From: an uncultured SAR116 cluster alpha proteobacterium
Lineage (GTDB): Bacteria; Pseudomonadota; Alphaproteobacteria; Puniceispirillales; Puniceispirillaceae
Length of the DNA stretch: 64,000 nucleotides
Assembly (NCBI GenBank): GCA_902622515.1
Contig: CACNQE010000008.1
Span: forward strand, 15,509-79,508
Direction: 5' to 3'
A program made the translations under genes and the position numbers. This document shows, piece after piece, positions 42,284 through 61,365 of this stretch (the stretch's first letter is position 1; each line of letters starts with the position of its first letter). Under the pieces are notes generated by a model. It ran no database searches and was not told the origin of the DNA. It saw only the letters and a program-made list of their open reading frames with translations.

Positions 42284-43294
42284 CTAATTAAGTACTTTAA
42301 TGATATTTAGTAAATTTTCCGTAAAAACCTCTTTTGAAAATCGTTCATCATACACAGCTTGTCTGGCTCTCTGCTGATATTTATTCCTTTCCCTCGGGTT
42401 TTGTATAAGTATTTTCAGACGGTCCACCATCTCGTCGATATTTGATGGTTCAAAAAAAAGTGCATCTTCAATACTTTGACAAATCCATAAAGGGCCATTT
42501 GTGCGTGTTGCTACAATGGCAACACCATATTGCATAATTTCAGGTAGTATATAGCCAAATGGTTCATCAAGAGAGGGAAGACAGAAAATATCTAAAAAGG
42601 GGGCAAATTCTTTAATGTCAATCCAACCTGTAAATCGGACTGGATTGCCTTTGCTTTTTGAGAATGCCAGGAGACTTTTTGATAACGGCCCATCACCAGC
42701 AAGTACAAATTCAACTTCGGGGAATTCTTTGCGAACTCTCGCGGCAGCATCAATGAATGTTTTGAAGCCTTTTTTTTCAACAAACCTTCCTGCAGCTCCT
42801 ATGGTAATCTTTTGACCTATCTTATCGCTGTGAGTAATTTTTTTTTGAGGTTCAAAATAATGAGATAACAGATGAATACTATTTTCACATCTACCAATTT
42901 CTTTCGCTTTTTGAACCGCATTTGGTGTAAGACAAATTAAATTGTCTGCGTAATCAAACTGCTCTGGTTTGTCGTTGTGACAAATACCGATAACACTATC
43001 ACTGTATTTTTTTATACTTCTGCACATGAAGCCATTATGAACAAAAGAAATGTTAAATAATTGATTATTAAAATTATTGACAGAAAACAATAAGTTCCTT
43101 CGGATAAGGGTTTTTTGAAGCCATGACAATTTTATATGATTCGCGTTATCGCCATCTTTGTTTGTATATAAATAATTAGGGGTAAAGTAAAAATTTTCAA
43201 ATTCAGAAAGGGGTGCTAGAGCGGCAACATAGTTTTTATAGGCTTTTTGAATTCCACCTGGCTTGTTATCACTTGTAACATGGAGAATCTTCAT
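42284..43294 (-). CDS. GT4 (group 1) glycosyltransferase
   Basis: GT-B fold signatures: MKILHVT...GG at the N-terminus, and the EX7E-type motif EPFGYILPEIMQYGVAIVATRTNG in the C-terminal half. Confidence 0.8.
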   Translation of the reverse strand: MKILHVTSDNKPGGIQKAYKNYVAALAPLSEFENFYFTPNYLYTNKDGDNANHIKLSWLQKTLIRRNLLFSVNNFNNQLFNISFVHNGFMCRSIKKYSDSVIGICHNDKPEQFDYADNLICLTPNAVQKAKEIGRCENSIHLLSHYFEPQKKITHSDKIGQKITIGAAGRFVEKKGFKTFIDAAARVRKEFPEVEFVLAGDGPLSKSLLAFSKSKGNPVRFTGWIDIKEFAPFLDIFCLPSLDEPFGYILPEIMQYGVAIVATRTNGPLWICQSIEDALFFEPSNIDEMVDRLKILIQNPRERNKYQQRARQAVYDERFSKEVFTENLLNIIKVLN

Positions 43295-43312
43295 AAGCGT
43301 CTCTTTCTTGGT

Positions 43313-44218
43313 TTAAGCATATAACAGTACAATAACAATTGAAATACCAAGGATGCTTATACCAATTAACTCAAGAAGAGTAATTTTTTCTTTTAAAAAA
43401 AGCCACGAAAACAAAATCGATATAATCAACTCAATTTGTCCTATTGCACGCACTGCCCCAAGGTGAAACATTGCAAATGCGTAAAACCATGCTGTAGAGG
43501 AAATAACAGCAGTAATGCCGATAAAAAAACCAATTTTCCAATTTGCGAGGCAAAGCATTAATTGTCCTGGTTCCTTAAAAACAAGGTAGCTTCCGAGAAT
43601 GATTGTTTGCAGTGAAATTGATATTGCCGCTGTAAAACTAGCATTAATAACTAGTAAATCACTATTTAAAAGTATTGTTGCTTTAAAATAAAAAATATTG
43701 GCCAAAGCAAGAGCAGCTCCAGCACCGATACCCAAGAAATGGTGGGGGGAAAAGAATAAATGACTTTTAACACCATTTTTAAACTCAATTTTTTGATAGC
43801 TTAAAAGAGCAACACCAATTAGTCCCATTGCGATCGCTCCTATAATCGAAAAGCTTGCTATATAACCAATTATTATAGCTTCTAATATAGCAGTCTGAAG
43901 AATCTCTGTTTTTGAAAGAGCAATACCAATAGCGTAGTTACGATAATTGAACATCATGATCAACAAAATCGTAAATATAATTTGAAGAATTCCAGCTAGC
44001 CCAACAAAAGCAATAAATAAAAAGGATATATTTGGCAACCTATTGCCAGTCATTAAGCAAATTGTAAAGACCCAGAGCCAAGTAAAGGTAATACCGTAGA
44101 TGAAGCGGCTAAAACTTGCACCCAACTCACCTACATGAGGGATTAATAATTTTTGACACACAGTTCGCAACGATTGGGCAATTGCTGCGATTATTGCTAT
44201 GACGGCCCATAATTCCAT
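43313..44218 (-). CDS. EamA/DMT-superfamily transporter
   Basis: Ten predicted TM helices in two similar halves, of EamA-type size (301 aa). Substrate unknown. Confidence 0.7.
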   Translation of the reverse strand: MELWAVIAIIAAIAQSLRTVCQKLLIPHVGELGASFSRFIYGITFTWLWVFTICLMTGNRLPNISFLFIAFVGLAGILQIIFTILLIMMFNYRNYAIGIALSKTEILQTAILEAIIIGYIASFSIIGAIAMGLIGVALLSYQKIEFKNGVKSHLFFSPHHFLGIGAGAALALANIFYFKATILLNSDLLVINASFTAAISISLQTIILGSYLVFKEPGQLMLCLANWKIGFFIGITAVISSTAWFYAFAMFHLGAVRAIGQIELIISILFSWLFLKEKITLLELIGISILGISIVIVLLYA

Positions 44219-44272
44219 TAAGAATTTTTAGTTCATCAATCTTAATAAATCTAGGATTTAGTTTTATGCTTA

Positions 44273-44860
44273 TTAGGTATCATTTTTTGGACTTACTGCC
44301 ACTTCACTTAGATCAAGAACTTTATTTTTTCTCTCTATTTTATGCCCTATTATATCTTGAATAACGTTATCTAACTTTTGCGAGACAACCTGGTTCAATA
44401 GAAGTTCAATAAATTGTTTTGTTTCAGATGATAAAACAAATTCAGAATTAACCCCCTTGTTATTTTGAGGACTGGAGAAAGTTTTTATTTTCTGTGTGTC
44501 ATTTTTCGATATATCTTCTTTTGCATTGGAAATAGCGGATCTAATATCACTTAATAAGGTATTTACTTTTTCTGGCTCTGTTTTGTCAAATTTGGAAATT
44601 ATTACGCTTTTACCCTCTATTTTTTCTTTTAATAAAGCGATTTCAGCATCTTTAAGGTATAATTTAAGTTTATTAATCTGGTTAATAATCGCTATATTTG
44701 GCTCAAGATCTTCCAAGGTTTTCGTTTGAGACAACAAATCATTGTTTTGTTTTTTAGGTAGTTTTTGGTTTATAACTGTTGCATCTGAAACCAGAGCTTC
44801 GATTGAAGCAATTTTTCTCAAACTTTTTAAATTTTTAAATATTTGTTCCTGGTTGGTCAT
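44273..44860 (-). CDS. Soluble K/N/E-rich protein with coiled-coil character; possible divergent PopZ (DUF2497-like)
   Basis: The N-terminal helix EQIFKNLKSLRKIASIE resembles the PopZ MEEILASIRRIISED motif. The C-terminal FIELLLNQVVSQKLDNVIQDIIGHKIERK resembles the PopZ/DUF2497 motif VRELLRPLLKEWLD.NLP.IVE..V.EE..RI. There is no TM helix or signal peptide. That it is coding is likely; the functional call is tentative. Confidence 0.4.
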   Translation of the reverse strand: MTNQEQIFKNLKSLRKIASIEALVSDATVINQKLPKKQNNDLLSQTKTLEDLEPNIAIINQINKLKLYLKDAEIALLKEKIEGKSVIISKFDKTEPEKVNTLLSDIRSAISNAKEDISKNDTQKIKTFSSPQNNKGVNSEFVLSSETKQFIELLLNQVVSQKLDNVIQDIIGHKIERKNKVLDLSEVAVSPKNDT

Positions 44861-45025
44861 AATTTTGTCTCTATAAAATATATTTCAATAATAATATTAT
44901 TAACTATATTTGACTAGGTAAAAATTTGTTATTTTATGAGATAGTTCTCTCTCGTTGTTAATGAGATATTGTTGACTTATAACTTCGCTAAGAATTTTAA
45001 GCAAACGTGATAAACAGGAGTATCT

Positions 45026-47128
45026 ATGTCGTTTATATCTATGATTGTTAAGTGGCATGAAAAATTGTTCCAAAATGGCCTATTTACTCAAAAAGCTACT
45101 TCATTGACTGTGACTTTCGCAATTATTCTAGGTATTATAGCCACATATATGAATTTTCAGGCTAGGCAAATTAATTGGCATTTGTGGGAACAAAATAAAG
45201 AAGAATTTTTTTATAAAGATACTCCACTATTTACAACAATGGATGCAGGTTATTTTTTGGGTATAGCTGGTTATCTTAAATCTGAAAAAACAATGGATGA
45301 ATATCAATCGCTGCGTGTATTTCCTAAAAATCAAATTAATGAAAAACAGCAAAATTCTTCCAAGCTATCCGCTCCTTTATTGTCAAAACTGATTGCTTAT
45401 TTTGCAAAAGATACAAGTCCGCAAGCATTGTTAACAGTGGGTAATAAAATGCTCCCTTACACTGCAGCCATCACAGCAATTTCTATTTTTATAGCATTTG
45501 GCGTAACAGGATATTGGATGGAGGGGTCGGTTGCAGCTGCTGGAGGTGGTTTATCAATAGCATATTATTGGCGTTCAGCTATCGGCAGAATAGATACGGA
45601 TCAATTAAACCTCGGAATGATGTATTTTATGTTCGCAATGGTTTTGTGTGCTGGGAAATCGAAGCAATTAAAATGGGGTATCCTCTTCACACTTTTAGCT
45701 GGATTGTCAGCGAGGTTATTTATGGCTTGGTATGGTAAATCAGAACTTATAATAATGGCATCAATATGCCTATGTTGGCTACTTATAATAAACACAAGAG
45801 ATTGGCGCAGTGTTATTGGGTGTTTGTTTGTCTTTATTCTAGTGTCAGGCGTTGAAGTTATTAATCCTTTTGATTCAGATTATCTTAAAACGAATTTAGT
45901 TTCACATGAATTTATTTTCAATAATGTATTGTCCACGGTGACGGAAATTTCAAAGACATCATTTTCTGAAATATTATATCGAATGACGGGTTCCGTTTTT
46001 GTGGGTAGTTTTTGTCTGTTTGGTATGATTTTTTGGGCAATTAGACATCCGAGTTTAGCGGTAGCATATGCGCCTCTTGCTGGCTTTGCAATATTTTCAG
46101 TAATATTAGGAAACCGAGCATTGTTTTATTCAGCTCCTTTTTTCTGGTTTGGAGGTGCTTATATTGTTGTATTGGCTACAAAATCCATAGCCTTTTTATT
46201 TTTATCTAGGTTTGAAGACTCCAGACAAATAGTAAGTACCTTGGCATCTTCGGTTGCCTGCTCTATTTTGTTAGTTTTTATATGGATTCAGGGCCCTGTT
46301 AATCAGTTAGCAAAACCATCAATTCCCTCTCCCATAATTAAAGCAATGGCTGAATTAAAGTTTATAGCAGGTCAAGAAAAGAGTGTTTTAGCAAGTTGGT
46401 GGGACTATGGGTATGCTTCAATGCTTATGAATGGAATACCAACATTTACAGATCCCGGAACACACCGTAGTAATTCCAATTACTTTATTGCTGACGTATT
46501 GCTATCAAATAACCAGAATTATTCTGCAGATACGCTCAGATTTCTCGCGAGAGGCGGATTAATAAATTTGAAAATACCCATCGAAAACAGAGCAGAACTA
46601 ACAAAGATTATGTTTTCAGAAAGAAATAAGGAGGCTCCAACAGTTTATCTTATGCTAACAAACCAAATGACTGATTGGATGCCATCTATCTCAAAAATCG
46701 GAAGGTGGGATATAGATTTGGGCGTTCCTATATTAGCAAAGGGTCATAAACCTGGACAGCAATTAGCGTATAATTTTTTAAATTGTGTAGATACAGAAAT
46801 ACCAGGAAAATTTAGATGCAATAACACAATTATTGATCTCAAAGAAGGAAAAATAAATGGAAACGCTGTTCTAAATTTAGTGGCTGAAGCCCATGGAGGA
46901 AAACTTATTGGAAGTAGGGTTTTTGACCAGAACCAATTGAATATGTTTCAAATTATGAAAGATGAAAATGGAAAATCAGCAAAAGTAGCTGTCCTTCATA
47001 AAGACCTATTTTTTAGCAGTTTTAATCAGATGTTTCATCTAGGGAGATTTGACTCAAAAAATTTTAAATTAGTTTATGATGGATACCCCCATGTTCGAAT
47101 ATTCAAATTATTGCCTGTATCCAAATAG
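45026..47128 (+). CDS. STT3/PglB-family oligosaccharyltransferase (GT-C, 700 aa)
   Basis: About 13 TM helices plus a ~240-aa periplasmic domain. Motifs: TTMDAGYF (EL1 Asp, nt 45242-45244), GRIDTDQL (DxD, nt 45593-45601), STVTEIS (TIXE-type EL5 motif, nt 45935-45946), NRALFYSAP (conserved Arg), WWDYGY (aa 458-463, nt 46397-46414) and TVYLMLTNQMTDWMPSI (MxxI-type motif, nt 46679-46690). The spacing closely matches Campylobacter PglB. Confidence 0.8.
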   Translation: MSFISMIVKWHEKLFQNGLFTQKATSLTVTFAIILGIIATYMNFQARQINWHLWEQNKEEFFYKDTPLFTTMDAGYFLGIAGYLKSEKTMDEYQSLRVFPKNQINEKQQNSSKLSAPLLSKLIAYFAKDTSPQALLTVGNKMLPYTAAITAISIFIAFGVTGYWMEGSVAAAGGGLSIAYYWRSAIGRIDTDQLNLGMMYFMFAMVLCAGKSKQLKWGILFTLLAGLSARLFMAWYGKSELIIMASICLCWLLIINTRDWRSVIGCLFVFILVSGVEVINPFDSDYLKTNLVSHEFIFNNVLSTVTEISKTSFSEILYRMTGSVFVGSFCLFGMIFWAIRHPSLAVAYAPLAGFAIFSVILGNRALFYSAPFFWFGGAYIVVLATKSIAFLFLSRFEDSRQIVSTLASSVACSILLVFIWIQGPVNQLAKPSIPSPIIKAMAELKFIAGQEKSVLASWWDYGYASMLMNGIPTFTDPGTHRSNSNYFIADVLLSNNQNYSADTLRFLARGGLINLKIPIENRAELTKIMFSERNKEAPTVYLMLTNQMTDWMPSISKIGRWDIDLGVPILAKGHKPGQQLAYNFLNCVDTEIPGKFRCNNTIIDLKEGKINGNAVLNLVAEAHGGKLIGSRVFDQNQLNMFQIMKDENGKSAKVAVLHKDLFFSSFNQMFHLGRFDSKNFKLVYDGYPHVRIFKLLPVSK

Positions 47129-47341: not shown

Positions 47342-48148
47342 TTATTTTGAGGTTGGAATAAAAACTTTTTGTCCGTCTATGTTGAACAGTCCTATTGTTT
47401 TTTGTCCTTTATATGAAGTGAGCCAGTTGATGAATGATTGACCCTCTGCAGATTTTACACTTGGGCATTTATTTTTATCGATAAGCATAACGCCATAAGG
47501 ATTGAATAAATGGCTATCCCCCTCGAGCAAAACGCCATGATCATATTTGTTAGAAAATGAGTACCAACTAGCTCTATCAACAAGCGTATATGAATTAGTA
47601 TCAATCGTAATATTTAGTGTTTTTCCCATGCCAGAGCCGGTCTCAAGATACCATTTACCAGACTCATTTACTGGATCTAAACCAATTTTCTTCCATATTG
47701 AAAGCTCCTTGGTGTGCGTGCCTGAGCCATCGCTTCTTGATGCAAATTTTGCACCTGAGGTAGCTATTTTAGCAAATGCTAAACCGACATCTTGCATTCC
47801 AGAAATGCCAGCTGGATCTGCAACTGGACCAACTATAACAAAGTCATTATGCATAATATTATAGCGTTTTCTTGAGAAACCATCTGCAATAAACTTTTGT
47901 TCATCTTCTGGACTATGCACGAGCAGAACGTCACCGTCACAATTGCGAGCATTTTTTATTGCTGCACCCGTTCCAACAGCAACTACGTTAACCTTTATCC
48001 CTGAGTCCGCCGTGAAAAGTGGAAGAATAAAATCATAGAAGCCAGAATTTTTGGTTGAAGTTGTTGATTGAACTAATATGGATTTATCCGAAGCTGATAA
48101 AACTGTTGGTATTAAAATCAATAGAATAAGGTAAGCGATTAAATTCAT
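47342..48148 (-). CDS. Periplasmic oxyanion-binding protein, TupA-like (tungstate/molybdate-type PBP), orphan
   Basis: Signal peptide, then ILVQSTTSTKNSGFYDFILPLF and VVAVGTGAAIKNARNCDGDVLLVHSP, resembling the TupA TTTS...G anion-binding motif. No permease or ATPase gene is adjacent. Confidence 0.6.
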   Translation of the reverse strand: MNLIAYLILLILIPTVLSASDKSILVQSTTSTKNSGFYDFILPLFTADSGIKVNVVAVGTGAAIKNARNCDGDVLLVHSPEDEQKFIADGFSRKRYNIMHNDFVIVGPVADPAGISGMQDVGLAFAKIATSGAKFASRSDGSGTHTKELSIWKKIGLDPVNESGKWYLETGSGMGKTLNITIDTNSYTLVDRASWYSFSNKYDHGVLLEGDSHLFNPYGVMLIDKNKCPSVKSAEGQSFINWLTSYKGQKTIGLFNIDGQKVFIPTSK

Positions 48149-48406: not shown

Positions 48407-49666
48407 ATGATAAAAAATGAACCTAAAAATGCTAAATCAATTATGTCTGAAATTGACCATATTCAGGCGGGTATTTTTGATATGAATGGTATAATGCGTG
48501 GCAAAAGATTGCCCCCATCGGATTATCAAAAAATTTTAGATAAAGGGATACAAATTCCCTTATCGGCCCAAAACATTGATATCAATGGGGAGGATATAGT
48601 CAATAGCAGATTTGTTTTCGAAACCGGGGATAAAGACGGAACAGCTATTAGTCAGGGTGCACCGTTGGTGCTTTTAAATCATTTGCCCAAACCTGTTTTA
48701 TTAATGCCGTTAAGTTTTACTCTTAACAATGGTCAGCCATTTGAGGGTTGCCCGAGGGCCTTTCTAAAATCTGTATTAAATAAGGCGAATGAGAAAAAGT
48801 TAATTTTTAGGTTTGGTATCGAGCTAGAATTTTGCCTTTTCTCAGATGCTGATTTAGCACCTATTTTTTCGAAGCCTCAATTACTTTCTTTATCAGCCTT
48901 GGATTCAATAGATTACTTTTTGCAAGATGTTAATAAAATTATAGACCAACTTGATATTAAGATTGAGTCTATCTTATCAGAAGCAGGAATAGGACAGATT
49001 GAAATTGTATTATCACCTTGTTCAGATCTATGTCATTTAGCAGATGCTATCCTTATTTTAAGACATAGTTTGACTGCATTTGCGTTAGCGAAGGGGATGT
49101 CTGTATCTTTTAGGGCAAAACCCGAGAACTACCTGTCTGGTAATGGATTGCATTGCCACATTTCAATGGGAGACAAACAGTCGGAAAATTTATTTTCAAA
49201 AGATAAAGCCGTTTTCAATTCAGCCATAGCTTCTGTGGTGGATTTATTAGAGCCTGCAGCGGCTATTTTGGCACCACTTCCGAATTCTTATGACCGGTTG
49301 CAGGAAAATAGCCATGCACCTGTAAATATTGGATGGGGGTACGACAATCGAACCTTGGCTGTGCGGATTCCAAACTCTCCCAATAATGCAAAAAGATTAG
49401 AGCTGAGAGTGCCAGGAGCTGACAGCAATCCATATTTTCTTTTTGCAACTTTGGTGTCGGCTATATTAAACGGGTTAGAGGAGATGTTAGAGCCACCATC
49501 CCCAGTTTTGGGCAATGGTTATGAGGCTAATTTAAAGAGGTTGCCGCACGACCTTCGCACGGCTATATCTCTTTTTGAGAAATCGGAAAAAATTCGAAAG
49601 CTGATACCACCCACCTTGAGAGAAATGTTTATTGCCACTAAAAAGCAGGAAATAAAGATAGTATAA
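48407..49666 (+). CDS. Glutamine synthetase-family protein (gamma-glutamyl-amine synthetase-like, paralog 1)
   Basis: GS catalytic motifs are present: FGIELEFCLF, NGLHCHISM, NSYDRL, WGYDNRTLAVRIP and RLELRVPGADSNPYF. Confidence 0.75.
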   Translation: MIKNEPKNAKSIMSEIDHIQAGIFDMNGIMRGKRLPPSDYQKILDKGIQIPLSAQNIDINGEDIVNSRFVFETGDKDGTAISQGAPLVLLNHLPKPVLLMPLSFTLNNGQPFEGCPRAFLKSVLNKANEKKLIFRFGIELEFCLFSDADLAPIFSKPQLLSLSALDSIDYFLQDVNKIIDQLDIKIESILSEAGIGQIEIVLSPCSDLCHLADAILILRHSLTAFALAKGMSVSFRAKPENYLSGNGLHCHISMGDKQSENLFSKDKAVFNSAIASVVDLLEPAAAILAPLPNSYDRLQENSHAPVNIGWGYDNRTLAVRIPNSPNNAKRLELRVPGADSNPYFLFATLVSAILNGLEEMLEPPSPVLGNGYEANLKRLPHDLRTAISLFEKSEKIRKLIPPTLREMFIATKKQEIKIV

Positions 49667-49679
49667 TCAGGAGAAATTA

Positions 49680-50648
49680 ATGGCTAACGATAAGAAAAAC
49701 AAGGCAATGCCTGAACTATTATCTGACCAGTCTTGGCGCAATTCTGATTTAGATAGGCGATTTTTTGAACCGACATATTCTGGTGCAATGAGTCTATTGA
49801 GGCGTCCTTATTCAGTTGAATTTGATGAAGCAGACATCGTGGTTGCTGGTATACCGTTTGATAACGCAACCACTTTTCGCCCTGGTTGTAGATTAGGGCC
49901 AAGAGCCGTAAGAGCGGCCTCTGTTCAACTAGCAGAATTGCCGTCATTCCCTTTTGGTTTTGATCCTTTTTCTATTTTGAAAGTTATAGATTCTGGTGAT
50001 TTTTTGCTTAATCCTCATAACCCAGAGACAATTATCTTAGATATTTATAAACAAGCAATATCAATCATTAGCGCTGGTGCATCCTTGCTTTCTATTGGTG
50101 GTGACCATTTTGTAACTTATCCTCTATTAAAGGCTCATGCGGAAATATATGGGCCCGTATCATTACTTCAATTTGATGCGCATTGTGATACATGGAAGTC
50201 ATTCGGAGAGCTTGATCATGGTACGATGTTTCTTCGTGCGATAGAGGAAGGGCTTATCGATGTTGAAAGTTCTATTCAGGTAGGGATAAGAACTCATAAT
50301 GATTTTGATGTTGGAATAAAACAAATAACTTCACCTCAAATTCATGAAATTGGTTTGCCTGCTGTTGTTGAGTTAATACTAAATCATCTGAAAGGTAGGA
50401 AGGTCTATCTGAGTTTTGATATAGATATATTAGACCCTGCTTTTGCCCCTGGCACAGGAACCCCTGTTTCTGGTGGAATAGCTAGTTGGCAGGCACTATC
50501 AATTCTTCGCAGTCTCGAGCCATTGAACATGATAGGATTTGATATTGTAGAGGTAAGTCCTCCATTTGATCATGCAGAAATCACTTCAATCACTGCTGCG
50601 ACAATTTTGCATGACTGGATTTGTGTAAAAGCACTTCAAAAGAGTTAA
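49680..50648 (+). CDS. Ureohydrolase-family enzyme (agmatinase / guanidino-acid hydrolase)
   Basis: All Mn-binding motifs are intact: GGDHFVTYP, FDAHCDTW and SFDIDILDPAFAPGTGTP, plus the VEVSPPFD motif. Confidence 0.85.
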   Translation: MANDKKNKAMPELLSDQSWRNSDLDRRFFEPTYSGAMSLLRRPYSVEFDEADIVVAGIPFDNATTFRPGCRLGPRAVRAASVQLAELPSFPFGFDPFSILKVIDSGDFLLNPHNPETIILDIYKQAISIISAGASLLSIGGDHFVTYPLLKAHAEIYGPVSLLQFDAHCDTWKSFGELDHGTMFLRAIEEGLIDVESSIQVGIRTHNDFDVGIKQITSPQIHEIGLPAVVELILNHLKGRKVYLSFDIDILDPAFAPGTGTPVSGGIASWQALSILRSLEPLNMIGFDIVEVSPPFDHAEITSITAATILHDWICVKALQKS

Positions 50649-51991
50649 ATATGAAAATAATCTCTCATTTTATACCATCCCATGCCAAGAGCTAAAATAG
50701 GGGTCCGCAATGGACCTCCAGGAAATGGAAGATGCGGAATTTTAGTAAGCTGGTTAAATCTCTCTTTTTTTCCACTGACTGCGTCACTTAGAATATTACC
50801 TGCAACACCAGAAAACGCAACTCCGTGTCCCGAATATCCTTGTACGTAAATCGCACTATCTGAAATTCTGCCAAAATGTGGTAGACGATTAACAGTAATT
50901 CCTATTCTTCCGGACCAAGCCTGTTGAATTTTTTTATGCATCAAATCTGGAAACACTGCTCTCATCCTTTTTTTTAAATCTTTCTCAACATTTATTGGGT
51001 CTGTGTTCAAATAGCTTGCACGCCCGCCAAAAATCATTCTATTTTGCTTATCAATTCGAAAATAATTTAATGCAGTATTCCCATCTGCAATTGCAGCTCT
51101 AGAAGGAATGGCTCTTTCTATTTCTGCATCGTTAAGAGGTTCAGTTGCCATAACCGATGAAGTAACTGGTGCTATTCTCCCACGCATGTTCTTTGGAGAA
51201 ACAGCACCAAGATAAGCATTTCCGCATATAATGAGTTGTTCAGTTATAACGCTATGACCTTGTTTTGTGATTAATTTATTCTTGTTGTTTTCAGTCTGTA
51301 TCGAGGAAATTGAGCTGTTAGTATAAATCTTAGCACCATCAATCGATGCTGCTTTTGATAGGCCAATTAGATATTTGAGGGGGTGAAGATGCCCACTTCC
51401 GGCATCGTACAATCCTCCTATATATGCATCAGAACAAATATAATTTAACAACGAGGATCTATTATTTAAAGCAAGAAGACGATTATATCCATGTGCTTCA
51501 AAACTTTTTTGATAGGTCTCTAATTCTCGCATATGACCTTTGTGTATCGCTGTGTGCACATATCCCCAACGAACATCGCATTCTATTTTATATTTTTTTA
51601 TTCTCTCTTTTATAAGATTAGGACCCTCAAGCCCTGCTTGCCACATATCTTCTTTAAATTCAGGATCTATATATTTTGAGAGCTTCTCAAAACTTGATGA
51701 CCATCCTTGACAAATTTGGCCTCCATTCCGACCTGAGCCACCATCACCAATATTCCCAGCTTCAAATAGGCATACATCATACCCTTTCTCACTAAGTGAT
51801 AAAGCTGTTGAAATTCCAGTAAGTCCTCCGCCTATAATTGCCACACTACATCTTATATCTTTATTTAGCTGGCCACAGAACTTTGGAGGTGAAATATCTA
51901 GCTGATAAATCGATTTAGAAATATGGCTAATTGACATTTTGTATAAACTTTTAGCATTGATAGGGTTCAAATTTCTTTTAAAGCATTTCAT
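50645..51991 (-). CDS. FAD-dependent oxidoreductase (PuuB/gamma-glutamylamine oxidase-like, DAO family)
   Basis: VAIIGGGLTGISTALSLSEKGYDV dinucleotide-binding motif and the DAO-family C-terminus (YVQGYSGHGVAFS). The start may be an internal Met (MSISH...). Confidence 0.75.
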   Translation of the reverse strand: MKCFKRNLNPINAKSLYKMSISHISKSIYQLDISPPKFCGQLNKDIRCSVAIIGGGLTGISTALSLSEKGYDVCLFEAGNIGDGGSGRNGGQICQGWSSSFEKLSKYIDPEFKEDMWQAGLEGPNLIKERIKKYKIECDVRWGYVHTAIHKGHMRELETYQKSFEAHGYNRLLALNNRSSLLNYICSDAYIGGLYDAGSGHLHPLKYLIGLSKAASIDGAKIYTNSSISSIQTENNKNKLITKQGHSVITEQLIICGNAYLGAVSPKNMRGRIAPVTSSVMATEPLNDAEIERAIPSRAAIADGNTALNYFRIDKQNRMIFGGRASYLNTDPINVEKDLKKRMRAVFPDLMHKKIQQAWSGRIGITVNRLPHFGRISDSAIYVQGYSGHGVAFSGVAGNILSDAVSGKKERFNQLTKIPHLPFPGGPLRTPILALGMGWYKMRDYFHI

Positions 51992-52114
51992 TAGATAGTA
52001 TATACTTAAATTACATATTTAAAGTGAGTGTTAATAAAAAAAGTATTTTATAAAAAACCGTTAGCATGACTTTATCGGCTGTAAAATAAGAAGTATGGGA
52101 AAGGATGGTGCTTT

Positions 52115-53470
52115 GTGTCAAATCAAGAAGATATTCAGCGTTTTGAAGAACAACACCACTTGCCACCATTTTCCGATTTTAAAACTCTAAAAAAGGAAGG
52201 CACACGTATAATAACTCATGCGCAAGGCCATTTTATATTCGATAATAATGGAAATGCCATTTTAGATGCAATGGCAGGCTTATGGTGCGTAAATGTTGGT
52301 TATGGCAGAGAAGAGCTAGTAAATGCTGCAACCGAACAAATGAAAAAATTACCGTATTATAACAGTTTTTTCAAGACTAGCAATGAGCCAGTAGCGAGGC
52401 TTTCAGCAAAACTTGCTTCGATTTCCCCTAAACATTTAAATCGTGTAATTTACGCAAATTCCGGTTCAGAAGCAAATGATACTATCATCCGTCTTGTGCG
52501 ACATTATTGGAATTTAAAAGGCCATCCTGAAAAAAGGGTAATTATTGGACGCGATTATGGCTATCATGGCTCTACTATCATGGCAGCTAGTATGGGTGGG
52601 ATGAAAGCAATGCACGAGCAATCTGCTAGTGAAGCAGATTTTGAGCATATAAGGCCCCCTTATGGTTTTTTATACCAAGGAAATCAGTCAGAGGCACAGT
52701 TTGCTGAGAGCTCTGCGCGCCATTTAGAAGAAAAAATTCATGAAGTTGGTGCAGATAAAATTGCAGCTTTTATTGCGGAACCAGTGCAAGGTGCTGGAGG
52801 AGTTATTATTCCTCCAAAGGGTTATTTTGATCACATTCAGAAAATCTGTGCTAAATTTGATATTTTATTTATTGTAGATGAGGTGATCACTGGATTTGGC
52901 CGAACTGGAAATTGGTTTGCAAGTCAAACAATGGATTTAAAACCTGATTTAATAACTTTGGCAAAGGGTCTTACTTCAGGTTATATGCCAATGTCTGCTG
53001 TTATGGTAAGCGATAAAATTGCTAATTACTTAATTAATGAAGGTGGCGAATTTTTTCATGGATTTACCTATTCAGGGCACCCTGTTTCTGCTGCTGTCGC
53101 ACTTGCTAATATTAAGCTGATTGAGGAAGAGGGGTTAATTCGTCATGTTCGGGACATTACTGCTCCTTATCTCGCAAAAGAAATTAAAAGGCTAGATAGC
53201 CATCCCTTGGTGGGAGAAACACGAAGTTTTGGATTACTTGCATGCATAGAACTTGTAAAGCATAAGTCTGGACCTGTTTTATTTGATCCCATTGGCGAGA
53301 TAGGTATGAGGTGCCGTGACCACGCTATTAACAGTGGCTTGATGGTACGTGCTGTGCGTGATGGCATGATTTTATCGCCGCCATTAAGCTATAAAACAGA
53401 AGATATTGACATAACAATTGAAAAACTAAATCAGGCATTAGATGACACATATACCGAACTCAAAAAGTGA
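52115..53470 (+). CDS. Class III (omega) aminotransferase, polyamine/beta-alanine:pyruvate type (SpuC-like)
   Basis: GLWCVNVGYGR, NSGSEANDT, FIVDEVITGFGRTG and the PLP-Lys context LITLAKGLTSGY. The ORF has a GTG start. Confidence 0.85.
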   Translation: MSNQEDIQRFEEQHHLPPFSDFKTLKKEGTRIITHAQGHFIFDNNGNAILDAMAGLWCVNVGYGREELVNAATEQMKKLPYYNSFFKTSNEPVARLSAKLASISPKHLNRVIYANSGSEANDTIIRLVRHYWNLKGHPEKRVIIGRDYGYHGSTIMAASMGGMKAMHEQSASEADFEHIRPPYGFLYQGNQSEAQFAESSARHLEEKIHEVGADKIAAFIAEPVQGAGGVIIPPKGYFDHIQKICAKFDILFIVDEVITGFGRTGNWFASQTMDLKPDLITLAKGLTSGYMPMSAVMVSDKIANYLINEGGEFFHGFTYSGHPVSAAVALANIKLIEEEGLIRHVRDITAPYLAKEIKRLDSHPLVGETRSFGLLACIELVKHKSGPVLFDPIGEIGMRCRDHAINSGLMVRAVRDGMILSPPLSYKTEDIDITIEKLNQALDDTYTELKK

Positions 53471-53481
53471 GCACCTAAATT

Positions 53482-54822
53482 ATGACCCAAAAACTAAATA
53501 AATGGCTGTCGGATCGCAATATTACAGAAGTTGAATGTTTAGTTCCAGATATAGCTGGTATTCCGAGAGGTAAGATTCTACCAGCAGACAAATATAATAA
53601 AGTTCTTAGAGGAAGCGGCCTTCGTCTTCCAGAATATGTATTTGGACAGACCGTTACAGGTGATTATCATGACTCAGTTGTGTTAAATGCTGCGGTAGGT
53701 GATGTACTTCTAAAACCTGACGAGAATGCTGCTTATTTAGTTCCATGGTACTCTGAACCAACTGCCCAGATCATCCATGATGCTTTTTACCTAGATAATA
53801 CTGAAGTCACAGTCGCCCCACGCGCTGTTTTAAAGCGCGTTATTCGCGCACTCAATGATAGAGGGTTGTCTGCGATAGTCGCACCAGAGCTTGAGTTTTT
53901 CCTTGTATCACAAAGTTCAGATCCCGATCATCCACTGAAAACACCGCCTGGAAGGTCTGGAAGAGCTGAAACAGGAAAACAAGCTTATGGTATTGATGCG
54001 GTCAATGATTTCGATCCTTTTTTCGAAGATGTTTACGACCATTGTGAAACCATGGGGCTTGATATTGATACACTTGTTCATGAGGGTGGGGCAGCTCAAA
54101 TGGAAATTAATTTCAATCATGGAGAGGCATTAACGCTGGCAGACCAAGCATTGATTTTTAAAAGAACTGTAAGACAGACAGCACTAAATCATCATATTCA
54201 TGCAACCTTTATGGCAAAACCTATGCAATACCAACCGGGCTCGTCAATGCACCTGCATTGTTCCATTTGTGACTTAAAAAATGGTCAAAATATGTTTTCT
54301 AATTCGAGTGGTGAGGATACAGAAACGTTTCGGCATGCTCTTGGAGGATTGCAGCGCTATCTTGCTGGTGGGATGGCACTGATGGCACCCTACGTAAATA
54401 GTTACAGAAGATTTATTACGACTTATGATGCCCCTGCAAATGTTGCATGGGGAGTTGATAATCGAACAGTGGGACTGAGGGTTCCTGCTGGTGATTATCG
54501 CAGTAGGCGCATCGAAAATAGAATTCCAGGTGCAGATACAAACCCATATTTATCGATTGCCTTAACATTTGCTTGTATTCTTCTTGGTATTGAAGAAGAG
54601 ATAGAGCCTGCGAAGCCAATGGTAAAAGAGTCAGATAATTTGTACACATTACCTCGAAATCTTGATATGGCTCTTGATAGTTTAGATAAAGCTAAAAAAC
54701 TTAGAGAAGTGCTCGGACTTGACTTTATATCAGTTTTTAATGAAGTAAAACGTGCTGAAGCTGAGGCATTTTTAAAAGTCATCTCTCCATGGGAAAGAGA
54801 ATATCTGCTTTTAAATGTTTAA
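53482..54822 (+). CDS. Glutamine synthetase-family protein (gamma-glutamylputrescine synthetase PuuA-like, paralog 2)
   Basis: D..G..RGK, APELEFFLV, SSMHLHCSI, NSYRRF, WGVDNRTVGLRVP and RIENRIPGADTNPYL. Confidence 0.8.
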   Translation: MTQKLNKWLSDRNITEVECLVPDIAGIPRGKILPADKYNKVLRGSGLRLPEYVFGQTVTGDYHDSVVLNAAVGDVLLKPDENAAYLVPWYSEPTAQIIHDAFYLDNTEVTVAPRAVLKRVIRALNDRGLSAIVAPELEFFLVSQSSDPDHPLKTPPGRSGRAETGKQAYGIDAVNDFDPFFEDVYDHCETMGLDIDTLVHEGGAAQMEINFNHGEALTLADQALIFKRTVRQTALNHHIHATFMAKPMQYQPGSSMHLHCSICDLKNGQNMFSNSSGEDTETFRHALGGLQRYLAGGMALMAPYVNSYRRFITTYDAPANVAWGVDNRTVGLRVPAGDYRSRRIENRIPGADTNPYLSIALTFACILLGIEEEIEPAKPMVKESDNLYTLPRNLDMALDSLDKAKKLREVLGLDFISVFNEVKRAEAEAFLKVISPWEREYLLLNV

Positions 54823-54857
54823 AATAATCGAGCCATTTATGAGTTTAGGGATTGGAT

Positions 54858-61354: not shown

Positions 61355-61365
61355 AGGTTATACCT

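What the first reader, a model, noticed from the sequence alone, without database searches (positions are those of the whole stretch)
45026..47128. Complete PglB/STT3-type oligosaccharyltransferase in an alphaproteobacterial genome
The 700-aa protein carries, in the correct order and spacing, every hallmark I know for the catalytic subunit of N-linked oligosaccharyltransferases:
- EL1 acidic residue in TTMDAGYF (compare PglB ..NDGYAF..)
- DxD in GRIDTDQL (compare PglB YDTDML)
- EL5 TIXE-type motif STVTEIS
- the conserved Arg in NRALFYSAP
- the diagnostic WWDYGY at residues 458-463, essentially the same position as in Campylobacter PglB
- a downstream YLMLTNQMTDWMPSI segment resembling the PglB MxxI motif region

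Bacterial N-glycosylation by PglB is established for epsilon- and some deltaproteobacteria. An apparently functional homolog in a free-living AT-rich alphaproteobacterium, without a canonical pgl gene cluster in the 64 kb around it, points to an uncharacterised protein (or other periplasmic acceptor) glycosylation system. No pglC-type initiating transferase, pglK-type flippase or bacillosamine genes are visible here. The donor may therefore be simple and could be supplied by the GT4 (42284-43294) or the polyprenyl-phosphate GT2 (626-1435).
Basis: partly seen in the sequence, partly recalled or inferred. Interest (0 to 1): 0.8.

Follow-up and report, generated by a model that had tools for sequence, protein, structure and literature searches.

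The report
PglB-like oligosaccharyltransferase lineage in marine SAR116
The gene encodes an intact but very divergent relative of the enzymes that attach sugars to asparagine in proteins; it belongs to a large, unstudied family in the abundant marine SAR116 bacteria, a bacterial class in which the literature I could search reports no enzyme of this type.

Summary
ORF 45026-47128 (+) encodes a 700-aa protein whose predicted fold matches C. lari PglB over its full length (TM-score 0.72). It matches ArnT/AftA much less well (about 0.34).

Across 113 family members, down to about 36% identity, the catalytic Asp/Glu, the DxD, the residues that bind the lipid-pyrophosphate donor, and WWDYGY are invariant or nearly so.

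It is not a PglB orthologue. It scores 77 bits against an NCBIfam cut-off of 1300. It belongs to a monophyletic alphaproteobacterial (mostly SAR116) lineage whose nearest named relatives are Deferribacterota/Hippea "STT3-domain" proteins.

Two defining motifs deviate in every member:
- An invariant Trp replaces the Ile (or Lys) of the MI/DK motif in the Ser/Thr pocket, giving M-x-x-W-x-x-x-I.
- The Lys of the DGGK motif is missing.

The window has no pgl cluster. In related genomes, however, the gene sits in tight arrays with a WecA-like phosphoglycosyltransferase, an epimerase and a Wzy_C protein, or next to PglC/PglF-like genes.

Between near-identical genomes the gene is a divergent, mosaic allele (dS about 0.9 against 0.1-0.3 in the flanks) that is still under purifying selection.

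The most likely function is periplasmic N-glycosylation from an undecaprenyl-diphosphate-linked glycan. This is inferred, not shown.

The parts
45026..47128 (+). Gene for the 700-aa STT3/PglB-type oligosaccharyltransferase homologue. It is monocistronic here: the upstream neighbour is divergent and the downstream neighbour is convergent.
   Evidence: ORF. PF21436 at 3.3e-11. PglB structures are the only significant PDB sequence hits. AlphaFold model pLDDT 83.4, pTM 0.82. Foldseek TM-score 0.72 to C. lari PglB.
45016..45020 (+). Shine-Dalgarno sequence AGGAG, 5 nt before the ATG
   Evidence: Read directly from the sequence.
45026..46300 (+). Transmembrane GT-C domain (about residues 1-425), including external loops EL1 and EL5
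   Evidence: Helix pattern of the model. The low-confidence stretch at 280-310 corresponds to the flexible EL5 loop. Full-length superposition on PglB.
45242..45244 (+). D73, the EL1 catalytic/metal-binding Asp (= C. lari PglB D56)
   Evidence: Alignment. Asp in 112 of 113 family members.
45572..45601 (+). R183 and the D190-T-D192 DxD motif (= PglB R147, D154, D156)
   Evidence: Alignment. 113 of 113 conserved.
45728..45733 (+). W235-Y236 (= PglB W195-Y196; Y196 is a contact for the donor pyrophosphate)
   Evidence: Alignment. 113 of 113 conserved. The role of Y196 is taken from my own knowledge of the PglB-LLO structures.
45935..45946 (+). T304-V-T-E307, the TIXE-type motif of EL5 (E307 = PglB E319)
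   Evidence: Alignment. T304 and E307 are conserved in 113 of 113.
45980..45982 (+). R319, aligned with PglB R331, the residue that reads the -2 Asp/Glu of the bacterial sequon
   Evidence: Alignment 'yRm' / 'qRi'. Arg in only 52 of 113 family members.
46115..46117 (+). R364 (= PglB R375, which binds the donor pyrophosphate)
   Evidence: Alignment. 113 of 113 conserved.
46313..47128 (+). C-terminal periplasmic domain (about residues 430-700)
   Evidence: Aligns with the crystallised C. jejuni PglB C-terminal domain 3aag at 3.3e-09. Foldseek TMt 0.67-0.76 to 3aag.
46397..46414 (+). W458-W-D-Y-G-Y463, the WWDYG motif that forms half of the Ser/Thr pocket (Y463 = PglB Y468)
   Evidence: 112-113 of 113 conserved. 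Role of the motif as stated in PMC8342417.
46451..46465 (+). D476-P-G-T-H480, the counterpart of the DGGK(H) motif. Asp is invariant, Gly was invariant in the 24-sequence alignment, and the Lys is replaced.
   Evidence: Alignment. D476 in 113 of 113. Position 480 is Gln in 88 and His in 24.
46667..46690 (+). M548-T-D-W551-M-P-S-I555, the counterpart of the MI/DK motif. An invariant Trp sits where PglB has Ile572 and STT3/AglB have Lys.
   Evidence: Gapless alignment to PglB YRMLRIMP, with the PglB residue count verified. W551 in 113 of 113, M548 in 111, I555 in 110. The model shows a helix break at residue 551 (H547-550, H552-559).
42284..44860 (-). Divergent upstream block: GT4 glycosyltransferase (42284-43294), EamA-family transporter (43313-44218), and an acidic 195-aa protein with no family hit (44273-44860). 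It may be associated with the OST, but this is not shown.
   Evidence: Pfam. The block is syntenic in the closest clade, and EamA/GT4 homologues recur near the OST gene in a second clade. The same comparisons also retain housekeeping genes, so the linkage may simply be inherited gene order.

Best explanation
The gene encodes a functional single-subunit oligosaccharyltransferase of the STT3/AglB/PglB superfamily, sitting in the inner membrane with its active site facing the periplasm.

Proposed mechanism, by analogy with PglB. D73, D190 and E307 hold a divalent cation and activate the amide of an acceptor asparagine. R364 and Y236 hold the pyrophosphate of an undecaprenyl-diphosphate-linked glycan. 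WWDYG together with the M548-x-x-W551 helix binds the hydroxy-amino-acid two residues downstream of the asparagine. The glycan is then transferred in one block to Asn in exported proteins.

The window enzyme keeps the Arg (R319) that in PglB demands an acidic residue at -2, so its sequon may be D/E-x-N-x-S/T. About half of the family lacks that Arg.

The donor is made elsewhere in this genome. In related SAR116 genomes it is started by a WecA-like or a PglC-like phosphoglycosyltransferase. This points to a reducing-end HexNAc-type sugar, consistent with the conserved Y463.

What is shown: homology, fold, conservation of every catalytic and donor-binding residue, purifying selection, and gene linkage in relatives. 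What is inferred: the activity, the acceptor, the glycan and the sequon.
For: 1. Fold. The AlphaFold model is confident (pLDDT 83.4, pTM 0.82). It matches C. lari PglB at TM-score 0.69-0.72 (E about 1e-22), STT3/AglB at 0.50-0.58, and ArnT/AftA at about 0.34.

2. Sequence. PglB chains are the only significant PDB hits. PF21436 scores above its gathering cut-off.

3. Residues. D73, R183, D190, D192, W235, Y236, T304, E307, R364, WWDYGY and D476 are conserved in 112-113 of 113 homologues, down to about 36% identity.

4. Selection. dN/dS is 0.12-0.20 against four relatives.

5. Linkage.
- In L011, L013 and L029 the order is SDR-epimerase -> OST -> Glycos_transf_4 (WecA/MraY family, 2e-28). L011 and L013 continue with Wzy_C; the L029 contig ends about 1.2 kb after the transferase gene. 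Gaps between genes are 5-40 nt.
- In L081 a cluster of Wzy_C, AsnB-like, GT4, Bac_transf (PglC-type, 183 bits) and Polysacc_synt_2 (PglF-type, 400 bits) lies 3-10 kb upstream of the OST, with only pntAB between.
- Wzy_C is adjacent in 7 loci and an epimerase in 13.

6. Phylogeny. The lineage groups with bacterial OST homologues of Deferribacterota and Hippea, and then with C. lari PglB. It does not group with archaeal or Firmicutes STT3 proteins. Mills et al. 2016, as cited in PMC6025236, characterised a PglB from Deferribacter desulfuricans.
Against: - There are no biochemical or glycoproteomic data for any member of this lineage.
- Two of the six motifs that define the superfamily deviate in every member. 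Trp replaces the Ile/Lys that contacts the +2 Ser/Thr, and the Lys of DGGK is absent. Acceptor or donor recognition may therefore differ.
- Pfam's STT3 membrane-domain model PF02516 does not detect the protein.
- The NCBIfam PglB model scores 77 bits against a cut-off of 1300.
- The 64-kb window holds no phosphoglycosyltransferase, flippase or dedicated sugar-modification genes.
- In one clade (11 loci) the gene sits among housekeeping genes such as ispE and ribA.
- I computed no background rate for finding glycan genes near a random SAR116 gene.
- PglB-type enzymes also hydrolyse their donor to free oligosaccharide (stated in PMC8342417). Transfer to protein is therefore not the only possible output.
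Confidence: 0.62

Rival explanations
1. It has the same fold and chemistry, but the acceptor rule is different. The invariant Trp in the Ser/Thr pocket and the lost DGGK Lys would mean one of two things. Either the enzyme recognises a different sequon, with something other than Ser/Thr at +2 or a different context, or it transfers the glycan to a non-protein periplasmic acceptor such as a lipid, a glucan or a cell-wall component.
For: W551 replaces the Ile572/Lys contact in 113 of 113 members, while the sister group has Lys and PglB has Ile. The DGGK Lys is absent. A Wzy_C (O-antigen ligase/polymerase family) gene is the most frequent immediate partner. This could point to a role in surface polysaccharide rather than protein modification.
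Against: The WWD residues that hydrogen-bond the +2 hydroxyl are invariant. So is the TxTE strand that pairs with the sequon backbone (roles as stated in PMC8342417). The M-x-x-[contact]-x-x-x-I spacing is kept. To my knowledge, no STT3-family enzyme is known to use a non-peptide acceptor.
Confidence: 0.17
2. Its main physiological job is to hydrolyse the lipid-linked glycan and release free oligosaccharide into the periplasm, for example as an osmoprotectant in seawater. Protein glycosylation would be minor or absent.
For: OSTs from all three domains have this hydrolytic side activity (PMC8342417). In yeast, mutations in the DK motif (the region altered here) shift the balance between hydrolysis and transfer (same paper). 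The organism is marine. The gene often stands alone, without acceptor-related neighbours.
Against: A pure hydrolase would not need to preserve the whole peptide-binding apparatus (WWDYG, TxTE, and R319 in half the family), yet these are conserved. The DK-motif mutations described in yeast suppress hydrolysis rather than enhance it.
Confidence: 0.1
3. It is a member of a different GT-C family (ArnT, PMT or arabinosyltransferase type) that uses a polyprenyl-monophosphate sugar. On this reading it works with the GT2 at 626-1435, and its resemblance to PglB is superficial.
For: PF02516 does not hit. The window does contain an ArnC-like GT2 next to a LAB_N-domain gene.
Against: Foldseek ranks ArnT and AftA about 18 orders of magnitude worse than PglB, with half the TM-score. 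The C-terminal domain matches the PglB periplasmic domain, which ArnT and PMT lack. The pyrophosphate-binding Arg and Tyr are invariant. The window has its own PMT_2-family GT-C at 34701-36194, which is the natural partner for that GT2.
Confidence: 0.02
4. It is a decaying or non-functional relic of an ancient transfer.
For: The window holds no partner genes. The gene is very divergent from characterised enzymes.
Against: The reading frame is intact in more than 100 homologues. The catalytic residues are invariant. dN/dS is 0.12-0.20. The Shine-Dalgarno sequence is canonical. The gene is present in at least 43 species-level genomes of the order.
Confidence: 0.02

Closest known systems
Bacterial STT3/PglB homologues of Deferribacterota, Hippea, Nitrospirae and Aquificae. 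NCBI names them 'STT3 domain-containing protein' or 'undecaprenyl-diphosphooligosaccharide--protein glycotransferase'. Mills et al. 2016 characterised a PglB from Deferribacter desulfuricans, as cited in PMC6025236 and PMC7313396.
   Same: The two groups are homologous end to end (hhalign probability 100%, 650 aligned columns, 24% identity). These proteins score 220-355 bits with the SAR116 profile, against 98 bits for C. lari PglB. They form the sister group in the NJ tree (bootstrap 75). Length (about 660-700 aa) and catalytic motifs are the same.
   Different: That group has Lys at the pocket position (M-x-x-K-x-x-x-I, like the DK motif), whereas SAR116 has Trp. Its members are detected by PF02516, and the SAR116 proteins are not. 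The hosts are mostly anaerobes or thermophiles, not aerobic marine plankton. I could not read Mills et al. 2016, and I did not have the D. desulfuricans protein itself. The group includes a Deferribacter abyssi homologue.
Campylobacter lari / C. jejuni PglB (PDB 3rce, 5ogl, 6gxc, 3aag)
   Same: The fold matches over the full length (TM-score 0.72). All metal, acceptor-amide and pyrophosphate contacts align, as do WWDYGY, Y468 and the R331 equivalent in the window protein.
   Different: Identity is only about 18%. The NCBIfam equivalog score is 77 against a cut-off of 1300. Ile572 is replaced by Trp and the DGGK Lys is lost. There is no adjacent pgl cluster in the window.
Desulfovibrio PglBs with relaxed sequon specificity (Ollis et al. 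2015, PMC4894442; PMC12229607)
   Same: They are bacterial single-subunit OSTs. About half of the SAR116 family likewise lacks the Arg that enforces the -2 acidic rule. I know from my own reading that Desulfovibrio enzymes share this trait.
   Different: I did not compare them directly, because no Desulfovibrio sequence was in hand. The window protein itself keeps the Arg.
Archaeal AglB and eukaryotic STT3
   Same: They share the superfamily fold and motif set (TM-score 0.50-0.58).
   Different: They are much more distant. The family profile finds no AglB or STT3 chain among PDB sequences at E <= 0.001, and archaeal proteins score 17-70 bits. They carry the DK motif and, in many cases, DNXTZNX[T/S] instead of DGGK (PMC8342417).

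Membership tests
STT3/AglB/PglB oligosaccharyltransferase superfamily | GT-C membrane domain plus C-terminal periplasmic/lumenal domain, with the overall fold of solved OST catalytic subunits | tested here: met
   Foldseek TM-score 0.69-0.72 to C. lari PglB over about 700 residues. All of the top 20 hits are PglB, STT3 or AglB. Model pLDDT 83.4.
STT3/AglB/PglB oligosaccharyltransferase superfamily | Pfam family models: PF21436 (core domain) and PF02516 (STT3 membrane domain) | tested here: inconclusive
   PF21436 scores 44.3 bits against a cut-off of 23, so it is met. PF02516 gives no hit even at E <= 10.
STT3/AglB/PglB oligosaccharyltransferase superfamily | First acidic motif in EL1 (PglB D56) | tested here: met
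   D73 aligns with D56. Asp in 112 of 113.
STT3/AglB/PglB oligosaccharyltransferase superfamily | Second DXD motif (PglB D154-x-D156) | tested here: met
   D190-T-D192 aligns. 113 of 113 conserved.
STT3/AglB/PglB oligosaccharyltransferase superfamily | TIXE/SVSE motif in EL5 with the catalytic Glu | tested here: met
   T304-V-T-E307 aligns with T316-I-M-E319. The Thr and Glu are conserved in 113 of 113.
STT3/AglB/PglB oligosaccharyltransferase superfamily | WWDYG motif | tested here: met
   W458-W-D-Y-G-Y463. 112-113 of 113 conserved.
STT3/AglB/PglB oligosaccharyltransferase superfamily | DGGK motif (bacterial/euryarchaeal) or DNXTZNX[T/S] | tested here: inconclusive
   The window has D476-P-G478-T-H480 and the family consensus is D-G-G-[STA]-Q. 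Asp is invariant in 113 of 113 and Gly in 24 of 24. The Lys is missing from all 24 aligned members, replaced mostly by Thr, Ser or Ala.
STT3/AglB/PglB oligosaccharyltransferase superfamily | DK motif (D-x-x-K-x-x-x-M/I) or MI motif (M-x-x-I), forming the Ser/Thr pocket with WWDYG | tested here: not met
   The scaffold is kept (M548 in 111 of 113, I555 in 110 of 113, same spacing), and the model shows a helix break at residue 551. However, the contact residue is Trp in 113 of 113, neither Ile nor Lys. This is why I file it as a variant.
STT3/AglB/PglB oligosaccharyltransferase superfamily | Residues that bind the pyrophosphate of the lipid-linked donor (PglB R375, Y196) | tested here: met
   R364 and Y236 align and are conserved in 113 of 113.
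STT3/AglB/PglB oligosaccharyltransferase superfamily | Catalytic activity: transfer of a lipid-diphosphate-linked glycan to Asn of N-x-S/T | not testable with these tools
   This needs expression in glyco-competent E. coli or glycoproteomics.
PglB sensu stricto (NCBIfam NF050801 equivalog; Campylobacter type) | Score above the curated equivalog cut-off | tested here: not met
   76.7 bits against a cut-off of 1300. C. lari PglB scores only 98 bits with the family profile, whereas Deferribacterota/Hippea proteins score about 300.
PglB sensu stricto (NCBIfam NF050801 equivalog; Campylobacter type) | Arg in EL5 that reads the -2 Asp/Glu of the extended bacterial sequon (PglB R331) | tested here: met
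   R319 aligns with R331 in the window protein. Across the family it is Arg in only 52 of 113.
Campylobacter-type pgl pathway (gene cluster) | Neighbouring pglC-type phosphoglycosyltransferase, pglK/wzx flippase, diNAcBac genes (pglDEF) and GT4 glycosyltransferases | tested here: not met
   None is present in the 64-kb window apart from one generic GT4. Partial equivalents occur in relatives: Bac_transf plus a PglF-like gene, GT4 and Wzy_C in L081; a WecA-like transferase, an epimerase and Wzy_C in L011 and L013, and a WecA-like transferase plus an epimerase in L029. No flippase was recognised among the neighbour genes I annotated.

The most novel reading that the evidence does not exclude
SAR116, one of the most abundant groups of ocean surface bacteria, carries out general N-linked protein glycosylation with an OST lineage of its own. 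The rebuilt Ser/Thr pocket (Trp instead of Ile/Lys) gives a sequon rule different from both the Campylobacter and the eukaryotic/archaeal ones. Divergent OST alleles are exchanged by recombination and kept in the population, so the cell-surface glycoproteome varies from strain to strain in response to phages or grazers.
Probability: 0.2. Interest if true: 0.8.

Novelty: new variant of a known kind. Interest (0 to 1): 0.6.

Why it matters
According to the papers I could search, OST-dependent N-glycosylation in bacteria is documented only for Campylobacterota, Desulfovibrio, Deferribacter and a few relatives (PMC7313396, PMC6025236). A conserved lineage under purifying selection in SAR116 would extend it to Alphaproteobacteria and to free-living ocean plankton. 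In that setting, surface glycoproteins bear on phage and grazer interactions and on the make-up of dissolved organic matter.

The invariant Trp in the Ser/Thr pocket is a natural experiment on how OSTs read the sequon. Enzymes with new sequon rules are sought for glyco-engineering (PMC12229607).

The compact module found in relatives (epimerase, OST, WecA-like transferase, Wzy_C) is small enough to move into E. coli, which makes the question directly testable.

Tried and rejected
I relied instead on PF21436, PDB profile searches and the fold comparison.
- I tried to read Mills et al. 2016 (PMC4767053) for the Deferribacter enzyme. It is not held, so I cite it only through papers that cite it.
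- I looked for the model coordinates to measure the distance between W551 and the WWD motif. They are not exposed to the script environment. W551's placement therefore rests on the gapless alignment and the predicted helix break.
- I suspected that the acidic 195-aa upstream protein, and its 300-400-aa counterparts in a second clade, were PopZ/DUF2497-like. Pfam found nothing at E <= 0.1, so I dropped the idea.
- I suspected that the hexapeptide-repeat protein at 19398-19997 was a PglD-type acetyltransferase. It is closest to gamma-carbonic anhydrase.
- The promoter scan around the gene was at chance level (21 sites against 18.2 expected), so I make no promoter claim.
- The first tree attempt timed out. 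The tree I report is a quick NJ tree on a fast MAFFT alignment, with one Campylobacter sequence and no Desulfovibrio sequence, so its deeper nodes are only indicative.
- I did not attempt a sequon-enrichment scan. The proteins in hand are too few, and the sequon itself is uncertain.
- I did not compute how often glycan genes lie near a random SAR116 gene. The proximity counts therefore have no control; only the tight same-strand arrays carry weight.


Full report
**1. The observation**

An ATG-initiated ORF of 700 codons lies exactly at 45026-47128 on the + strand. An AGGAG Shine-Dalgarno sequence sits 5 nt upstream. The upstream neighbour is divergent and the downstream neighbour is convergent, so in this genome the gene is a transcription unit of its own.

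**2. Which family it belongs to**

- Pfam detects only the STT3/PglB/AglB core domain (PF21436, 3.3e-11, residues 453-506). It does not detect the STT3 membrane-domain model PF02516.
- NCBIfam's PglB equivalog model scores 76.7 bits against a cut-off of 1300. The protein is therefore a distant relative of PglB, not an orthologue.
- Among all PDB sequences, the protein matches at E < 0.01 only the C. jejuni PglB C-terminal domain (3.3e-09) and full-length C. lari PglB (5.3e-09). A profile of 24 family members raises the C. lari hit to 8.5e-28 and finds nothing else.
- An AlphaFold model built on that alignment is confident: pLDDT 83.4, pTM 0.82. Its only long low-confidence stretch is at 280-310, where PglB has the mobile EL5 loop.
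- Foldseek superposes the model on C. lari PglB over the whole length (TM-score 0.69-0.72, E about 1e-22). Eukaryotic STT3 and archaeal AglB follow at 0.50-0.58. ArnT and AftA reach only about 0.34, with E about 1e-3.

**3. Residue-by-residue check**

I rebuilt C. lari PglB residues 10-711 from the printed alignments. The counts land on D56, R147, D154, D156, Y196, E319, R331, R375, W463-D465, Y468, H485 and I572.

The window protein aligns as follows:

| Window protein | C. lari PglB |
|---|---|
| D73 | D56 |
| R183 | R147 |
| D190 / D192 | D154 / D156 |
| W235-Y236 | W195-Y196 |
| T304..E307 | T316..E319 |
| R319 | R331 |
| R364 | R375 |
| W458-Y463 | W463-Y468 |
| D476 | D481 |
| H480 | H485 |

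In 113 full-length homologues, down to about 36% identity, each of these is conserved in 112 or 113 sequences, with two exceptions:
- R319 is Arg in only 52 of 113.
- H480 is Gln in 88 of 113.

The residues that hold the metal, the acceptor amide and the donor pyrophosphate are thus fully preserved.

Two motifs deviate. [quoted passage not shown]
- The DGGK Lys is replaced: DPGTH in the window, DGG[STA]Q elsewhere.
- In the MI motif, the gapless alignment YLMLTNQMTDWMP / YIYMPYRMLRIMP puts M548 on M569 and W551 on I572. The family motif is therefore M-x-x-W-x-x-x-I, with Trp in 113 of 113.

The model shows a helix break exactly at residue 551 (H547-550, H552-559). From my own knowledge, this fits the kinked helix that carries this motif in solved OSTs. 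According to PMC8342417, WWDYG and DK/MI together form the Ser/Thr-binding pocket. [quoted passage not shown]

**4. How widespread the family is, and in what organisms**

- A word-indexed search returned 200 homologues (97% down to about 36% identity among the 120 listed), almost all unnamed. The few names are "hypothetical protein" from Alphaproteobacteria or Puniceispirillaceae MAGs, or an automatic [quoted passage not shown].
- A scan of one genome per GTDB species found full-length or partial copies in 43 species-level genomes. Nearly all are labelled SAR116, Puniceispirillales or unclassified Alphaproteobacteria; two are labelled Hyphomicrobiales and one Proteobacteria. Identity is 27-77%.
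- The window's flanking genes are 90-99% identical to those of SAR116 single-cell genomes AG-422-K21 and AG-894-M09. The window is therefore from that group.
- An exhaustive profile search of 1.84 billion cluster representatives gave 342 clusters at E <= 1e-30 and 1240 at E <= 1e-10.
- Aligning the full-length representatives shows two tiers. Members scoring about 400-880 bits mostly share the M-x-x-W motif, and those carrying a taxon name are Puniceispirillaceae or Alphaproteobacteria MAGs. Members scoring 220-355 bits mostly carry M-x-x-K-x-x-x-I.
- A search with a profile of the second tier shows it consists of STT3-domain proteins from Deferribacter, Flexistipes, Geovibrio, Limisalsivibrio, Hippea, Nitrospirae and "Deltaproteobacteria" MAGs. 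Some are already named undecaprenyl-diphosphooligosaccharide--protein glycotransferase. An earlier look-up had added Aquificaceae and Halioglobus MAG proteins to this tier.
- The two tiers are homologous end to end (hhalign probability 100%, 650 columns, 24% identity).
- With the SAR116 profile, Deferribacter abyssi scores 325 bits, Hippea 318, C. lari PglB 98, and archaeal or Firmicutes STT3-like proteins 17-70.
- A quick NJ tree (642 columns, 100 bootstraps) makes the M-x-x-W lineage monophyletic (bootstrap 100). It is sister to the Deferribacterota/Hippea tier (75), with C. lari PglB as the next branch (90). All are separate from the archaeal and Firmicutes sequences. The tree is rough and lacks Desulfovibrio sequences.

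**5. Literature**

Searches combining PglB or oligosaccharyltransferase with Alphaproteobacteria, SAR116, Puniceispirillum, Gammaproteobacteria or bacterioplankton found nothing on OST-type N-glycosylation in this class.

Recent papers list pgl/PglB orthologues only in these groups (PMC7313396; PMC6025236):
- Campylobacter
- a few Helicobacter species
- Wolinella
- Desulfovibrio
- Deferribacter desulfuricans
- Sulfurovum
- Nitratiruptor
- "less characterised delta- and epsilon-Proteobacteria"

A phylogenetic study describes only "a few bacterial homologues" nested among euryarchaeal sequences (PMC4973528). One study of marine bacterioplankton proposes O-linked glycosylation by PglL-type enzymes, not N-linked (PMC8931226).

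**6. Gene neighbourhood**

*In the window.* I annotated essentially all ORFs of 100 aa or more, apart from short ORFs nested in larger genes. There is no phosphoglycosyltransferase, no Wzx/PglK-type flippase and no bacillosamine-pathway gene. The hexapeptide protein at 19398-19997 is of the gamma-carbonic-anhydrase type.

The glycan-related genes in the window are:
- a GT4 (42284-43294) and an EamA transporter (43313-44218), divergent from the OST;
- a PMT_2-family GT-C enzyme (34701-36194);
- a GT2 plus a LAB_N-domain gene (626-1798).

*In relatives.* The family falls into three context types.
- The window's type is shared only by the closest clade.
- In a second clade the OST sits in a tight same-strand array. 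In L011, L013 and L029 the order is NAD-epimerase/dehydratase -> OST -> Glycos_transf_4 (WecA/MraY-family polyprenyl-phosphate HexNAc-1-P transferase, 2e-28). In L011 and L013 a Wzy_C gene follows, then a bona fide GalE on the opposite strand; the L029 contig ends about 1.2 kb after the transferase gene. Gaps between the same-strand genes are 5-40 nt.
- Elsewhere in that clade the epimerase or Wzy_C alone is adjacent.
- On a Tara scaffold (L081), a cluster of Wzy_C, AsnB-like amidotransferase, GT4, a 192-aa Bac_transf (PglC-type, 183 bits) and a 644-aa Polysacc_synt_2 (PglF/WbpM-type, 400 bits) lies upstream of the OST, separated only by pntAB.
- L082 has a sugar oxidoreductase and a DegT aminotransferase on one side, and Ugd, a nucleotidyltransferase and a phosphomutase on the other.
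- A third clade (11 loci, 27-32% identity) has the OST just downstream of ispE on the same strand (gaps of about 55-85 nt in 10 of the 11 loci), among housekeeping genes.

Overall, a phosphoglycosyltransferase lies within the fetched flanks in 5 of 48 loci, Wzy_C in 7 and an epimerase in 13. I have no background rate for these counts. Only the tight arrays are strong evidence.

**7. Selection and population structure**

I compared the window with its same-species-level relatives L002 and L005.

| | Flanking genes (14-16) | OST gene |
|---|---|---|
| Protein identity | 90-99% | 77% (L002), 73% (L005) |
| dS | 0.11-0.30 | 0.90 (L002), 0.95 (L005) |
| dN | 0.006-0.046 | 0.14 (L002), 0.17 (L005) |
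| dN/dS | 0.03-0.33 | 0.15 (L002), 0.18 (L005) |

- The OST in these same-species genomes is as different from the window's as the copy in another species (L001, 75.5%).
- Identity along the protein is mosaic. In L005 it is 96% and 88% in the first two 50-aa blocks, then 48-70% through the middle.
- In L079 it is 80-98% over the first 550 residues (94-98% in most blocks), then 70-82% at the C-terminus.
- The lowest identity generally falls in EL5 and the periplasmic domain.
- Because synonymous divergence is raised as well, this points to allele replacement by recombination rather than simple fast evolution.
- From my own knowledge, this pattern is typical of surface-glycan loci. That comparison is an inference.

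**8. Interpretation**

The best-supported reading is an active single-subunit OST. It would use a divalent cation and an undecaprenyl-diphosphate-linked glycan to modify Asn in exported proteins.
- The donor is probably initiated by a WecA-like or PglC-like enzyme, and so probably has a HexNAc-type reducing end. This is consistent with the conserved Y463, the equivalent of Y468.
- The window enzyme keeps R319, the equivalent of R331, so it may prefer D/E at -2. Half of the family does not keep this Arg.
- Activity, acceptor, glycan and sequon are all inferred.

Alternatives:
- The main alternative is that the rebuilt pocket (Trp, no DGGK Lys) changes the acceptor rule or even the acceptor class.
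- A second is that release of free oligosaccharide is the main output.
- A different GT-C family, or a dead gene, are effectively excluded.

**9. Novelty**

The homology is already visible to automatic pipelines: precomputed PF21436 hits and some JGI names. The enzyme class itself is well known.

What is new:
- a large alphaproteobacterial lineage;
- an invariant change in one of the six motifs that define the superfamily;
- compact partner-gene modules that differ from the Campylobacter pgl cluster;
- allelic hyper-divergence between closely related genomes.

I rate it a new variant of a known kind, of moderately high interest.

Noticed in passing
window 45026-47128 compared with L002, L005, L079, L001: Between genomes whose flanking genes are 90-99% identical (dS 0.1-0.3), the OST gene is only 73-77% identical, with dS about 0.9 and dN/dS 0.15-0.18. 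Identity along the gene is mosaic. This suggests allele replacement or intragenic recombination at this one locus. The adjacent acidic 195-aa gene is intermediate (84-85% identical, dS 0.32-0.39).
   Followed up: partly
It consists of a PMT_2-family (ArnT/PMT-like) GT-C enzyme, plus, about 33 kb away, an ArnC-like GT2 directly followed by a LAB_N (lipid A biosynthesis N-terminal) domain gene. These are preceded by the C-terminal part of a membrane protein that runs off the left edge of the window. This looks like a polyprenyl-monophosphate-sugar system, possibly for modifying lipid A or the envelope.
   Followed up: partly
L011:8818-15532, L013:8911-15539, L029:5242-9450: Compact array: NAD-epimerase/dehydratase -> OST -> WecA-like Glycos_transf_4, with 5-40 nt gaps. 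In L011 and L013 it continues with Wzy_C and then a true GalE on the opposite strand. This is a minimal candidate glycosylation module with no recognisable flippase or extra glycosyltransferase, which suggests a very short glycan.
   Followed up: partly
L081:1-9758: A pgl-like cluster lies next to pntAB and the OST on a Tara Oceans scaffold. It holds Wzy_C, an AsnB-like amidotransferase, GT4, a 192-aa PglC-type Bac_transf and a 644-aa PglF/WbpM-type dehydratase. The window also has pntAB (59975-62931), but 13 kb from the OST and without that cluster.
   Followed up: partly
proteins P0142, P0152, P0169, P0173, P0180: A few members of the wider bacterial family have degenerate WWD motifs (IMDYG, PWTYG, HWNYA, WWGYG, WWTDG) while keeping the DxD and the Glu. 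They may be inactive or may have a new function.
   Followed up: no
L044-L076 (Lachnospiraceae, Clostridia and Saccharibacteria MAGs from rumen/gut): Large (660-1000 aa) STT3-like proteins with the motif ASWWDYGYF/Y occur in Firmicutes and Saccharibacteria. In the rough tree, the three sampled (two Lachnospiraceae, one Saccharibacteria) cluster with AglB of the methanogen Methanovirga (bootstrap 96). This hints at archaeon-to-bacterium transfer in gut habitats.
   Followed up: no
window 44273-44860 (-); c34 proteins in L011, L013, L014, L017, L029: An acidic protein with no family hit always sits divergently upstream of the OST. It is 195 aa in the window clade and 308-401 aa and extremely Asp/Glu-rich in a second clade. 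The C-terminal ends look alike by eye. Its function is unknown.
   Followed up: partly
window 48407-56639: A conserved block downstream of the OST holds two glutamine-synthetase-like genes, an arginase-family gene, a DAO-family oxidoreductase, a class-III aminotransferase and an AMP-binding enzyme. It looks like a polyamine/gamma-glutamyl catabolic cluster, unrelated to glycosylation.
   Followed up: no
window 47342-48148 (-): The convergent downstream neighbour is a TupA-like (tungstate-type) periplasmic binding protein. It scores below the NCBIfam cut-off (201 against 400 bits) and has no adjacent permease or ATPase genes. It carries two N-x-S/T sites (NES, NIT), but nothing marks it as an acceptor.
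   Followed up: no
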